Shown here in pieces: positions 18,001-21,000 of a DNA stretch of 64,000 bases. The position numbers were made by a program. The stretch is from Carcharhinus longimanus (Eukaryota), in contig JASCQW010000162.1 in the NCBI GenBank assembly GCA_030264375.1, positions 89,716,433 through 89,780,432 of the forward strand. Direction: 5' to 3'. How positions within the stretch are numbered: position 1 is the first letter of the stretch; every line of letters begins with the position of its first letter.

Positions 18001-21000
18001 ACAATTAGTTCCAGACCCAGCCCTCCCTCCACCCTCCAAGACAAAGACCTAAGAGTCTGTTCACCTCCAGTATTCAACCACAAATTCCTGCTCCCCCTTC
18101 CCCCATCTCCCTACAGACCTTTCCACTGTAGGGTTGTGTCTTTCCTTAAATCTCATCCTCCATTTTTTTAAAGCTTAGTCACCTCTGACATCTCGCAGCA
18201 TCCCGATTTCCTCTGATCGACCAGCAAAGGCAAAAGATAAGATAGCAATCACATTAGCAGGGAAAGATTGGCAAGAGCCCTCCAGACACACACATTGGAG
18301 AGAGACGCACTCAAGATTAGAGAGACTAGCAGAAAGCATAAAACAGAAATAACTGGGTGGGGGGTTGGGTAGACAGCAGCGATGCAAATATTAGGAATGA
18401 GTATGATGAGTATGACAACCAAAAAGAGAACAGATAAAGAAAGCAAAGGCAAAAAGAGCACAGAAATAGTTATTTATTGCAGTTATTGGAATGCGAGTTG
18501 TTCCATCTGTCACCACTCATGGCAATCTACAATTTTGCATAATTTTAAATTACCATGTCTTCTAACTTGCTGTGAAATTCTATAAACATTTGCAGCCAAG
18601 GCTCATCACACACAAGCAATGAAAATCATGTTGGCCCAATATTTTGGACCAAATTATCAATCTTATTTATACAACTCCTAACCCAGTCCCTTACCTAAAA
18701 GTTCAATGATCCCTGCATGGATGGCGAGATATCGTTCACAGAGAAGTGGCTCCCTGCTCTGACTGTAGTGCCTCACTATGGTTTCAAATAGCACCCTTTT
18801 GTGTGTCTCTGCAACCTCTCTGTCATTTATGATCTGAGATAGCAGTTCACTTGCATGCACAATCAGCTCATCAGGGAAATATTCCAGACAATCAACTGCA
18901 GCCACGAACCACTCATCAGTGCTGTGGACACAAACAGAACAGAGACTGAGGAAACATATCACATGCACAGTTTGTCTTGACAAGTCACTCCATATTCCTG
19001 CCCAGAAATTTCAAGATTAGCTTTGGATGAATTTCAGAAGTTTGGTTCATGAAATATTACAGCAGAGGTGGTGGTCATTCAGCAAATCAATTCTGTGCCA
19101 CCTCATTCGAAGAATAATCTTGCACTTTTCCCTCATATCCCTGAAATAACTCTCCAATACCCTTTTGAGGGCTACAATTGAATCTGTATCCAGAACAGAG
19201 CTTTTTTTTATTGGGAGAGTATACTGATTTCTTCAGTCTCTCAGCTCTCCTCCCACTCAACCCAGTGTCCCAGTTATCCCCTCTTCATTTGTGCTCAAAA
19301 ACAAATGAATACTCATCCCATTTCTCTACACTGTAAAAATGTAATTTACAGGACATTAACACCCTGACCCAATTAGGTTGAAATAGTACAACAAATCCCT
19401 GAGGAAAATTGGTCCCTGAGTCTACATTTCTATAATGTGCCATTTGAATGGTGTACCTGACATTTGCAAAGAATAACACATTCAAAGATGAAAGGGCAAC
19501 TGAATGAGCAGCTGAGTGTGGGGAAAGATCAATAGAAGATTATGCATTTTGAATTATTTCATACAAAAATCTAATGTTTTGCATTCTTTCATGGAACCAA
19601 TGAGAGGGACACAGAGGTTTACGATAAATTTTTCATTATTCTTTTCTTCTCAGCACAGTAAAAATTTTAACACTTCATCTTAGATATTAAACGCTGTTTA
19701 TTCCAAGCTCTTTGAATGGGATGAAGTTATTTGCAAATACTAACTAGGGCAGATTTAGGCTCTTAGAAACCTCTCGATCCAGGAACGTGTTGGAGATAAT
19801 GAGGTCAGTTTGTCGATTGAACTGAGATCGTCGCCTTCTTTCCACCTTCAAAGGAGACTCCAAGATGCTGTCCAAGATGGGGAGGTGAATTAAATGTAGC
19901 AGCTGCAACAAAGTGGTTTGCTTCCAAACATCCTCTACAACTGTTGTGGGGCAAGTCAGACCCCAGTATTGGAAGTAGAAGGGAAGCACAGTAGAAACAT
20001 TGTTAGTGTTCACATGCTTGGTTATGAAGAATCACATAGCCATACAGCAGTTAGTTAATGCATGCAATTCGCACATTGAAATGCAACACTAAATTCTGTA
20101 TTTAGCTCCTACAAAAAGGGAATTTGTGAGCGAGTAGAGAAAATAGAATAGTTAAATCTGTGAATACATGAAATTAATTGCTGCACTTCCCCCTGCCATT
20201 TCAACAACAGCCACACTGGCTGTGAAGGGGCTGACTGCAACAATTAATCACAAAGAGACACCATTTAAATGTGCTAGGTATTGCTCCCTCACTGAAAATC
20301 CTGGGTTGAGAAACAATTAGCAGTTTGAAAGGGAGCATAAACAGAAAACAGAAACTACTCATTGGTCAACACAGTTCGGCTTTGACTTCATGGGTTTCTT
20401 GCTCATGAGTACAACTTCCCAATACAAATTTCTCATTTCTGCCAGACCAGTAATAGATAGCATATGAAACTCAAGTTAGTGGGTTAGACACCAGCTCCTT
20501 CAGCGCAGCCTGATGTAATGAACATCTCCTCTGTTTGCTGGTTAAAAGGATCCTTCGAACTGGGTTTGAAGGTTCTGAAGCTGGCATTCACAGGCAATGT
20601 CACCCAGGTCCATCCAGGCAAAAAAAAAATCAAAGCACAAAAATTGCTTCAGATTCTTCAAGTGATTATGACACTCAACCAAATAGTTGATCTAGGCAAT
20701 AAAGTATACCCCACAGTGGTGCGGTAGCAGTTAATTTCTGATAGTAGGACTGTTACACATTCTTCATGATGTGGGTATGCCGGCGTTGGACTGGCGTAAA
20801 CACCTGACGAAGGGTCTAACCCGAAAGCTTGTGAGAATATTATCAAATAAATAGGTTGGACTAAAACCTGGTGTTGTCAGACTTTTTACTGGCAAACTTC
20901 AACAGGCCTGGACAGCATGAAGCCCTCAAGGTTACATTTACTTGATAATAAGAAGCATATATCAGGTTCACAACATCCTCACTCCTATCTCATTGTTTGC

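What the first reader, a model, noticed from the sequence alone, without database searches (positions are those of the whole stretch)
18695..19940. DEPDC4/DEPDC7-family protein-coding gene nested antisense inside a CHL1 intron
Seen: two stop-free minus-strand exons (196 and 227 nt) with canonical splice sites join in frame (…SKSLNLP-Y-TDEWF…). They retain CpGs and lie on the same gap-free stretch (16962-28694) as the CHL1 FNIII-4 exon, so scaffolding across a gap cannot explain the arrangement. Knowledge: the peptides and the 1-2 / 2-1 phases match the middle exons of DEPDC7/DEPDC4 as I recall them. Human DEPDC4 (12q23) and DEPDC7 (11p13) are not linked to CHL1 (3p26), where only antisense lncRNAs (CHL1-AS1/AS2) are annotated to my knowledge. 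Inference: a relocated DEPDC4, an additional paralogue kept in sharks, or a captured gene fragment, forming a sense-antisense pair with a neural adhesion gene.
Basis: partly seen in the sequence, partly recalled or inferred. Interest (0 to 1): 0.85.

Follow-up and report, generated by a model that had tools for sequence, protein, structure and literature searches.

The report
Isolated DEPDC4 exon pair beside CHL1
Two intact exons from the middle of the shark DEPDC4 gene lie backwards next to an exon of the nerve-cell adhesion gene CHL1, but they are only a fragment and may have been put there by an assembly error.

Summary
Minus-strand exons 19940-19745 (196 nt) and 18921-18695 (227 nt) have AG/GT sites, join in frame and contain no stops. 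They are DEPDC4: exon A matches the Mustelus asterias orthologue at 64/64 residues and exon B at 74/75, and identity falls along the species tree. The plus-strand exon at 26662-26841, on the same gap-free contig, is CHL1.

The claim of a nested protein-coding gene is not borne out. tblastn and a profile HMM find only these two exons, about codons 227-367 of 549, in all 64 kb. The window has no DEP domain, no C-terminal half, no in-frame ATG and no SCYL2 neighbour. No CHL1 exon lies upstream in the window. Full-length DEPDC4 and CHL1 sit on contigs of different length in 6 of 6 elasmobranch species.

An old shark paralogue is rejected. Two origins remain that I cannot separate here: a contig-level misjoin of the species' own DEPDC4 exons (about 0.45), or a very young partial duplication (about 0.40). 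Interest is low. The joined peptide was not searched.

The parts
19745..19940 (-). DEPDC4 internal exon A (196 nt). It begins with 2 nt that complete a codon, holds 64 whole codons and ends with 2 nt.
   Evidence: AG/GT sites and open frame. It matches M. asterias P0003 residues 228-291 at 64/64. The profile HMM gives E = 5.5e-37. It has 38 relatives at E<=1e-3 in the representative library.
18922..19744 (-). 823-nt intron between the two DEPDC4 exons. It is retained in the DNA, so this is not a processed retrocopy.
   Evidence: GC is 0.37 and CpG o/e is 0.11. The in-frame codon across the donor is TAG, so an unspliced reading stops at once.
18695..18921 (-). DEPDC4 internal exon B (227 nt). 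It begins with 1 nt that completes the Tyr codon, holds 75 whole codons and ends with 1 nt.
   Evidence: AG/GT sites and open frame. It matches P0003 residues 293-367 at 74/75. The profile HMM gives E = 2.2e-43.
20765..20891 (.). Interspersed SINE-like repeat 825 nt upstream (in DEPDC4 sense) of exon A. Its 5' part is inverted relative to its 3' part.
   Evidence: Copies lie at 12138-12226 and at 37461-37528, the latter at a gap edge. It bounds the non-repeated block that carries the exons.
16962..17445 (.). Left end of the contig. It looks like a common shark interspersed repeat and bounds the non-repeated block on the other side.
   Evidence: Sequence read. That it is a known repeat is recalled, not tested. 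No second copy lies in the window.
26662..26841 (+). CHL1 exon encoding the second half of the fourth FNIII domain (about residues 964-1029 of M. asterias CHL1).
   Evidence: 57/59 to M. asterias P0021.
58223..58342 (+). CHL1 exon, first half of the fifth FNIII domain.
   Evidence: tblastn at 95-97.5% to Cetorhinus and S. canicula CHL1. It is absent from M. asterias isoform X2.
58688..58849 (+). CHL1 exon, second half of the fifth FNIII domain.
   Evidence: tblastn at 96-98%.
60509..60641 (+). CHL1 transmembrane exon, with tandem acceptors at its 5' end.
   Evidence: 40/41 to M. asterias.

Best explanation
The two exons are a genuine but isolated internal piece of the DEPDC4 orthologue, about codons 227-367 of a protein of about 530-550 residues. 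They are not a gene nested in CHL1.

Shown:
- The piece belongs to the DEPDC4 orthologous lineage of a shark close to Mustelus.
- It carries its own intron and intact splice sites.
- It has no in-frame ATG.
- The window encodes neither the DEP domain nor the C-terminal half.
- Full-length DEPDC4 lies on a different chromosome-size contig from CHL1 in six other elasmobranchs.

Inferred: at this place the piece makes no DEPDC4 protein and is inert.

As to how it came to lie 6.7 kb from a CHL1 exon, I commit narrowly to a contig-level assembly misjoin. On this reading the species' real, selected DEPDC4 exons were fused to CHL1 intron sequence, probably through one of the interspersed repeats between 20.7 and 26.4 kb. 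I put this at about 0.45. The close second, at about 0.40, is a very young DNA-level partial duplication. The confidence given below is for the umbrella statement (isolated fragment, not a functional nested gene).
For: Only two exons are present:
- tblastn of three full-length orthologues gives no other hit better than E = 3.1.
- A profile of 9 orthologues searched against 3317 segments gives two hits, and the next best has E = 1.
- The DEP domain is at residues 62-146 of P0003 and has no counterpart in the window.
- Neither exon peptide nor the upstream open extension contains Met.
- No SCYL2 exon is present. The Narcine read-through model P0018 hits only with its DEPDC4 part.

Canonical gene elsewhere: DEPDC4 and CHL1 lie on contigs of different length in M. 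asterias (140,039,266 against 159,792,552), S. canicula, R. typus, P. pectinata, H. perlo and N. bancroftii, which is 6 of 6 species.

No decay:
- Identity to M. asterias is 138/139 in whole codons, against about 97/100 for the CHL1 exons.
- DEPDC4 is the faster gene in deeper comparisons: 125/139 to Carcharodon, against 184/196 for CHL1 to Cetorhinus.
- Only one residue is unique to the window.
- This fits selected exons or a very recent copy.

The assembly is a fragmentary draft with 14 N runs in 64 kb. Repeats able to mislead an assembler lie between the DEPDC4 exons and the CHL1 exon, at 20765-20891, 23068-23741, 24002-24465 and 26307-26389.
Against: - The exons and the CHL1 exon are on one gap-free contig, and chimeric contigs are much rarer than scaffolding errors.
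- No join is visible. The inverted junction inside the SINE-like element at 20765-20891 is not the kind a shared-k-mer misjoin would produce (inference).
- The one window-specific change (Asn to Ser) hits a site invariant in 13 elasmobranch orthologues. This weakly favours relaxed constraint, though the calibrated likelihood ratio is only about 1.7.
- Other DEPDC4 exons could hide in the N runs or beyond the window.
- The contig lengths come from a protein table, not from a direct look at the genomes.
Confidence: 0.85

Rival explanations
1. Real, very young partial duplication. A DNA segment of at least 1.25 kb, possibly the whole non-repeated block of about 17446-20764, was copied from the DEPDC4 locus into a CHL1 intron in this lineage. 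It carried two exons and their intron. It is a gene fragment too young to have decayed, with no function of its own. This is an origin sub-reading of the best explanation.
For: - Seamless contig.
- The intron is retained, so the copy was made at DNA or pre-mRNA level and is not a processed retrocopy.
- The piece is bounded by interspersed repeats on both sides.
- The single private substitution lies at an otherwise invariant site.
Against: - It must be very young: at most 1 lineage-specific residue change in 139 codons, while the CHL1 exons differ from M. asterias at about 3 of 100 residues.
- A near-identical 1-3 kb second copy would be expected to break or collapse a short-read contig (inference).
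- No target-site duplication, tail or tandem repeat marks an insertion: TRF gives 0 rows on the contig, and there is only one 39-nt direct repeat pair at 23677/24427.
- No short fragment model of 41-132 aa exists in the protein collection.
Confidence: 0.4
2. A complete, functional DEPDC4 relocated so that it overlaps CHL1 antisense. Its other exons would lie in N runs or outside the window, across introns of more than 18 kb on the 3' side and more than 44 kb on the 5' side.
For: - The exons are intact and as conserved as a working orthologue.
- Introns here are long: the CHL1 intron from 26841 to 58223 is 31 kb.
- The 1597 N of unknown true size could hide exons.
Against: - No other DEPDC4 exon is found in 64 kb by tblastn or profile search.
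- The 5' exons would have to lie beyond at least four CHL1 exons, so the two genes would be interleaved rather than nested.
- M. asterias, 138/139 identical in these exons, has its full-length gene on a different contig from CHL1, as do the other five species that could be compared.
- There is no CpG island within the contig.
Confidence: 0.05
3. An additional, old DEPDC4/DEPDC7-like paralogue retained in sharks.
For: None beyond the unusual location.
Against: Identity follows the species tree of the DEPDC4 orthologues:
- M. asterias 64/64 and 74/75
- Carcharodon 61/64 and 64/75
- S. torazame 60/64 and 64/75
- batoids 51-56/64 and 51-57/75
- tuatara 36/64 and 41/75
- gar 33/64 and 41/75

An old paralogue would be about equally distant from all of them. 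No second hit per species appears among the 18 hits.
Confidence: 0.01
4. The fragment is real and has been taken up into a new minus-strand transcript, either an antisense RNA to CHL1 or a chimeric coding gene that uses these two exons. This is a subset of the duplication reading.
For: Both splice sites of both exons are intact and the frame is open.
Against: - No expression data are available.
- There is no start codon in the exons.
- There is no CpG island or other candidate coding exon nearby: 6 long ORFs between 2976 and 21972 have no Pfam family.
- Intactness is explained by youth alone.
Confidence: 0.05

Closest known systems
DEPDC4 of elasmobranchs. The nearest record is Mustelus asterias P0003, labelled 'DEP domain-containing protein 7'. 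15 of the 18 hits are labelled DEPDC4.
   Same: Exon A is 64/64 and exon B 74/75 identical to P0003 residues 228-291 and 293-367. The exon edges agree with annotated isoforms.
   Different: Only 141 of 549 codons are present. The window has no DEP domain, no C-terminal region, no start, no stop and no SCYL2 neighbour. The piece lies antisense beside a CHL1 exon, whereas the full-length genes of six species are on other contigs.
Partial gene duplicates, meaning gene fragments carried by small segmental duplications or templated insertions (general knowledge, recalled).
   Same: It is an intron-containing piece of a gene, on another gene's territory, without the rest of the gene.
   Different: No duplication boundaries, target-site duplication or parent copy could be examined. 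It has no decay at all, which is unusual unless it is very recent.
Chimeric contigs in short-read draft assemblies (general knowledge, recalled).
   Same: Perfectly conserved exons of an unlinked gene are joined to another locus in a draft with contigs of 0.4-12 kb, with interspersed repeats in between.
   Different: No breakpoint signature can be seen from sequence alone. Reads are needed.
   Same: Opposite-strand position within the span of a large neural adhesion gene.
   Different: A nested gene is a complete transcription unit. This is two internal exons. A host exon on the upstream side is not in the window.

Membership tests
DEPDC4 (DEP domain-containing protein 4) gene | Sequence orthology of the encoded peptides to DEPDC4 | tested here: met
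   Exon B has 18 hits, of which 15 are named DEPDC4, 2 DEPDC7 and 1 is a DEPDC4-SCYL2 read-through. Exon-wise identities follow the species tree. No tree with bona fide DEPDC7 was made, because no outside DEPDC7 was retrieved.
DEPDC4 (DEP domain-containing protein 4) gene | DEP domain (PF00610) near the N-terminus | tested here: not met
   The DEP domain is at residues 62-146 of P0003. The window has no match to residues 1-218. Pfam finds no family above cut-off in the exon peptides.
DEPDC4 (DEP domain-containing protein 4) gene | C-terminal helical region (labelled PF27581 in the precomputed column of the hits) | tested here: not met
   The window has no match to residues 368-549. The local Pfam copy does not report PF27581 even on P0003, so where that model begins is unknown to me.
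DEPDC4 (DEP domain-containing protein 4) gene | Complete reading frame with start and stop | tested here: not met
   There is no Met in either exon or in the open extension upstream. Unspliced readings stop at once (TAG across the donor of exon A) or after 6 codons beyond exon B.
DEPDC4 (DEP domain-containing protein 4) gene | Neighbourhood with SCYL2 (human adjacency recalled; in Narcine implied by a read-through model) | tested here: not met
   P0018 (1500 aa) hits the window only with its DEPDC4 part. No SCYL2 exon reaches E<=1.
Gene nested in an intron of CHL1 | Host-gene exons on both sides | tested here: inconclusive
   CHL1 exons lie at 26662, 58223, 58688 and 60509 only. None lies upstream of 26662, where the best hit has E = 3.6. 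Nesting follows only if the contig is true, since the 26.7-kb exon is internal (about residue 965).
Gene nested in an intron of CHL1 | A complete transcription unit inside the intron | tested here: not met
   Two internal exons only, and no CpG island in 16962-28694.
Processed pseudogene / retrocopy | Introns lost, poly(A) tail present | tested here: not met
   The 823-nt intron is kept with its AG/GT sites. No tail or tandem repeat is present.
CHL1 (neural cell adhesion molecule L1-like) | Exons orthologous to CHL1, in order, on one strand | tested here: met
   21 of 23 hits carry that name. Four exons lie in protein order on the plus strand.

The most novel reading that the evidence does not exclude
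The join is real. A very recent, lineage-specific insertion put two DEPDC4 exons with their intron into a CHL1 intron. The piece is transcribed and spliced on the minus strand. This would give either an antisense RNA that acts on CHL1 or the seed of a new chimeric gene.
Probability: 0.06. Interest if true: 0.45.

Novelty: new member of a known kind. Interest (0 to 1): 0.15.

Why it matters
It matters little in itself. If the join is real, it is one more young partial gene copy inside another gene's intron, of modest interest as raw material for exon shuffling or antisense transcription at a neural adhesion gene.

If the join is an assembly error, the practical consequence is for annotation. 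This draft would then lack two exons at its true DEPDC4 locus and would carry a false DEPDC4-like feature inside CHL1.

The case also shows that lying on the same gap-free contig does not rule out an artefact in a fragmentary draft.

Tried and rejected
- **Pfam on the two exon peptides:** no family (one chance-level match, E = 0.12).
- **PDB sequence search with each exon:** chance-level hits only, E >= 0.73.
- **PDB search with a profile of 9 orthologues:** matches only the DEP domain, positions 26-143, and nothing in the part these exons encode.
- **AlphaFold2 of the M. asterias orthologue with a 9-row alignment:** mean pLDDT 37.3 and pTM 0.18, so it was unusable. I made no fold search and draw nothing from it.
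- **Search for short fragment models of exon B (41-132 aa):** none found.
- **Rfam on 14000-29000:** 0 matches.
- **Tandem repeats in the contig:** 0.
- **Direct and inverted repeats in the contig:** nothing flanks the piece as a target-site duplication.
- **Pfam on 10 long ORFs of the window:** only a sub-threshold RVT_1 match at 32288-32632.
- **Relaxed-constraint argument:** I considered using the single window-specific change (Asn to Ser at a site invariant in 13 orthologues) as evidence of relaxed constraint. In real orthologues 19 of 67 private changes also fall at otherwise invariant sites, against 67 of 139 sites overall. The likelihood ratio is about 1.7, so I dropped the argument.
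- **LINE-mediated 3' transduction:** I considered the SINE-like element at 20765-20891 as a source. No tail or duplication supports this, and it remains untested.
- **Literature:** DEPDC4 with CHL1 gave 0 papers. DEPDC4 with DEPDC7 and 'paralog' gave 0. DEPDC4 with DEPDC7 gave 1 paper (PMC5175133), seen as a search listing only and not read.
- **Not done:** the joined 141-residue peptide was not searched or folded, since searches were made exon by exon. No tree with DEPDC1/1B/7 was built. The 38 unnamed representative hits of exon A were not fetched, so their identities are unknown.
- **Not possible here:** no eukaryotic genome collection was available. I therefore could not examine the same intron in other sharks, the canonical DEPDC4 locus of this genome, or nucleotide-level dN/dS.
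Full report
**1. The observation**

On the minus strand, exon A runs 19940..19745 (196 nt) and exon B runs 18921..18695 (227 nt). Each is preceded by AG and followed by GT. Exon A holds 64 whole codons and exon B holds 75, with no stops.

N runs end at 16961 and begin at 28695, so 16962-28694 is one gap-free contig.

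CpG retention is only partly true. Exon A has 5 CpG (o/e 0.50) and exon B has 3 (o/e 0.26). The window as a whole is 0.23 and the intron 0.11.

**2. What the exons are**

Searches were made exon by exon. The joined peptide was not searched or folded.

- Pfam and the PDB sequences give nothing for either peptide.
- Exon B, searched against longer proteins, gave 18 hits among 109 candidates.
  - 15 are named DEPDC4: 13 elasmobranch records, tuatara and gar.
  - 2 are named DEPDC7: Mustelus asterias (99%) and Rhinoraja longicauda (69%).
  - 1 is a Narcine model named SCYL2 isoform X2. Its first ~540 residues align with DEPDC4, so it is a DEPDC4-SCYL2 read-through.
- Exon A was tested in two ways.
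  - Exon-wise BLASTP gives 64/64 to M. asterias.
  - An HMMER pass over 1.84 billion representatives gives 38 relatives at E<=1e-3 and 9 at E<=1e-10. The hits of 502-543 residues with E <= 1e-10 align at about positions 217-280. These hits are unnamed and I did not fetch them.

Exon-wise identity falls along the species tree:

| Comparator | Exon A | Exon B |
|---|---|---|
| M. asterias | 64/64 | 74/75 |
| Carcharodon | 61/64 | 64/75 |
| Scyliorhinus torazame | 60/64 | 64/75 |
| Batoids | 51-56/64 | 51-57/75 |
| Tuatara | 36/64 | 41/75 |
| Gar | 33/64 | 41/75 |

The piece therefore belongs to the DEPDC4 orthologous lineage of a shark close to Mustelus. It is not an old extra paralogue. The two DEPDC7 labels sit where DEPDC4 orthologues of those species should sit, so I read them as naming inconsistencies. 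A formal tree with true DEPDC7 was not made.

The exon edges agree with annotated isoforms. Two Scyliorhinus isoforms run ...SKK|DEWF... and a Heterodontus isoform runs ...PNT|DEW.... The gar model departs from the sharks right after ...ELLG, which is what the window gives if the intron after exon B is read through.

**3. What is missing**

- tblastn of three full-length orthologues finds only these two exons. All other hits have E >= 3.1.
- A profile HMM of 9 orthologues was run against all 3317 stop-to-stop segments of 12 codons or more. It hits the two exons at E = 2.2e-43 and 5.5e-37, and the next best hit has E = 1.
- The two exons cover about residues 227-367 of the 549-residue M. asterias protein.
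- The DEP domain, at residues 62-146, has no counterpart in the window. Nor do residues 368-549.
- Neither peptide contains Met, nor does the open extension upstream of exon A.
- Without splicing, the frame stops at once after exon A (TAG across the donor) and six codons after exon B.
- The contig has no CpG island.
- No SCYL2 exon is in the window.
- The part of the protein encoded here has no solved relative.
- An AlphaFold2 model of the orthologue was too poor to use, with mean pLDDT 37.3.

**4. The CHL1 side**

The plus-strand exon at 26662-26841 is CHL1. Of 23 hits, 21 are named neural cell adhesion molecule L1-like protein, one is a partial hypothetical protein and one is unnamed. The best is M. 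asterias at 57/59.

Further CHL1 exons follow in protein order at 58223-58342, 58688-58849 and 60509-60641.

No CHL1 exon lies upstream of 26662 in the window. The best hit there has E = 3.6. The window therefore shows the DEPDC4 exons lying antisense, 6.7 kb upstream of an internal CHL1 exon (about residue 965). That they lie inside a CHL1 intron follows only if the contig is true.

**5. Where DEPDC4 normally is**

The protein tables give the length of the contig that carries each record, and every row used here lists a single contig. DEPDC4 and CHL1 sit on contigs of different length in 6 of 6 species that could be compared:

| Species | DEPDC4 contig (bp) | CHL1 contig (bp) |
|---|---|---|
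| M. asterias | 140,039,266 | 159,792,552 |
| S. canicula | 98,274,498 | 169,802,008 |
| R. typus | 58,822,999 | 62,395,636 |
| P. pectinata | 50,858,502 | 115,668,120 |
| H. perlo | 60,743,015 | 65,719,261 |
| N. bancroftii | 107,671,741 | 257,710,454 |

The Narcine read-through model implies that DEPDC4 lies next to SCYL2 there. The same adjacency in human is recalled, not checked. The canonical gene is thus unlinked to CHL1, including in a species whose protein is 138/139 identical in these exons.

**6. No sign of decay**

- Against M. asterias the fragment differs at 1 of 139 whole codons, plus the split codon (Tyr here and in most sharks, Ser in M. asterias).
- The CHL1 exons differ at about 3 of 100 residues.
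- In deeper comparisons DEPDC4 is the faster gene: 125/139 to Carcharodon against 184/196 for CHL1 to Cetorhinus.
- A copy drifting neutrally since before the split from Mustelus should be far more changed. The small counts keep this from being a strict test.
- The single residue unique to the window (Asn to Ser) lies at a site invariant in 13 elasmobranch orthologues.
- However, 19 of 67 private changes in real orthologues do the same, against 67 of 139 sites overall. This says almost nothing about constraint.

**7. Explanation**

The piece is an isolated two-exon fragment, not a nested gene (confidence 0.85). Two origins fit the evidence.

(a) Contig-level misjoin of the species' own selected DEPDC4 exons.
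- For: perfect conservation. The draft is fragmentary, with 14 N runs in 64 kb and contigs of 0.4-12 kb. Interspersed repeats lie between the exons and the CHL1 exon.
- Against: chimeric contigs are rare and no breakpoint is visible.

(b) A very young DNA-level partial duplication.
- For: the contig is seamless, the intron is retained, and repeats lie at both ends of the non-repeated block of about 17446-20764.
- Against: it would have to be extremely young. A near-identical second copy should trouble a short-read assembler. No target-site duplication or tail is seen.

I put (a) at about 0.45 and (b) at about 0.40. A complete relocated gene with giant introns interleaved with CHL1 gets about 0.05. 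An old paralogue gets about 0.01.

**8. Comparison with what is known, and limits**

Nothing in the searchable literature links DEPDC4 and CHL1: 0 papers. Two further searches gave 0 papers and 1 paper, the latter seen only as a search listing.

The closest known things are the annotated DEPDC4 orthologues, ordinary partial gene duplicates and chimeric contigs. The last two are general knowledge, recalled rather than tested.

No eukaryotic genome collection was available. The same intron in other sharks, this genome's SCYL2-side locus and nucleotide-level dN/dS all stayed unchecked.

**9. Verdict**

This is an ordinary gene fragment or an artefact, and interest is low (0.15).

Noticed in passing
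window 50590-50760 (+), abutting the gap at 50823-50922: This is the only CpG-rich stretch of the window (300-nt windows reach GC 0.61 and CpG o/e 0.98). It lies inside the long CHL1 intron. It reads like the end of an open frame that stops at about 50745, perhaps a young transposon ORF. That resemblance is recalled, not tested.
   Followed up: partly
window 29676-30311 and 32288-33219 (+): Open frames broken by 100-N gaps that look like LINE reverse-transcriptase remnants. Only 32288-32632 gives a Pfam RVT_1 match, below the cut-off (E = 8e-4, 19.6 bits against 29.6).
   Followed up: partly
window 20765-20891; copies at 12138-12226 and 37461-37528: A SINE-like element whose 5' part is inverted relative to its 3' part, 825 nt upstream of DEPDC4 exon A. 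The copy at 37461 sits directly at a gap edge, so this family seems to break contigs.
   Followed up: partly
window 58223-58342 and 58688-58849 (+): The two CHL1 exons for the fifth FNIII domain are absent from M. asterias isoform X2 (P0021) and H. perlo X1 (P0029) but present in other isoforms. This is an alternatively spliced cassette. The transmembrane exon at 60509 has tandem acceptors.
   Followed up: partly
database records P0003, P0017 and P0018: There are naming inconsistencies. The M. asterias and Rhinoraja longicauda DEPDC4 orthologues are labelled DEPDC7. The Narcine 'SCYL2 isoform X2' model of 1500 aa begins with a whole DEPDC4.
   Followed up: partly
database records P0015 and P0010 (Scyliorhinus), compared with window 18915-18921: These isoforms skip exon A and resume at ...DEWF, two residues into exon B. 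That needs an alternative acceptor 5 nt inside exon B. The window has ACT for the Thr codon, so it lacks the AG such an acceptor would need (inference).
   Followed up: no
window 35834-36529 (+): A 231-codon open frame, rich in Pro, Leu and Gly, runs across a 10-N gap. It was not examined.
   Followed up: no
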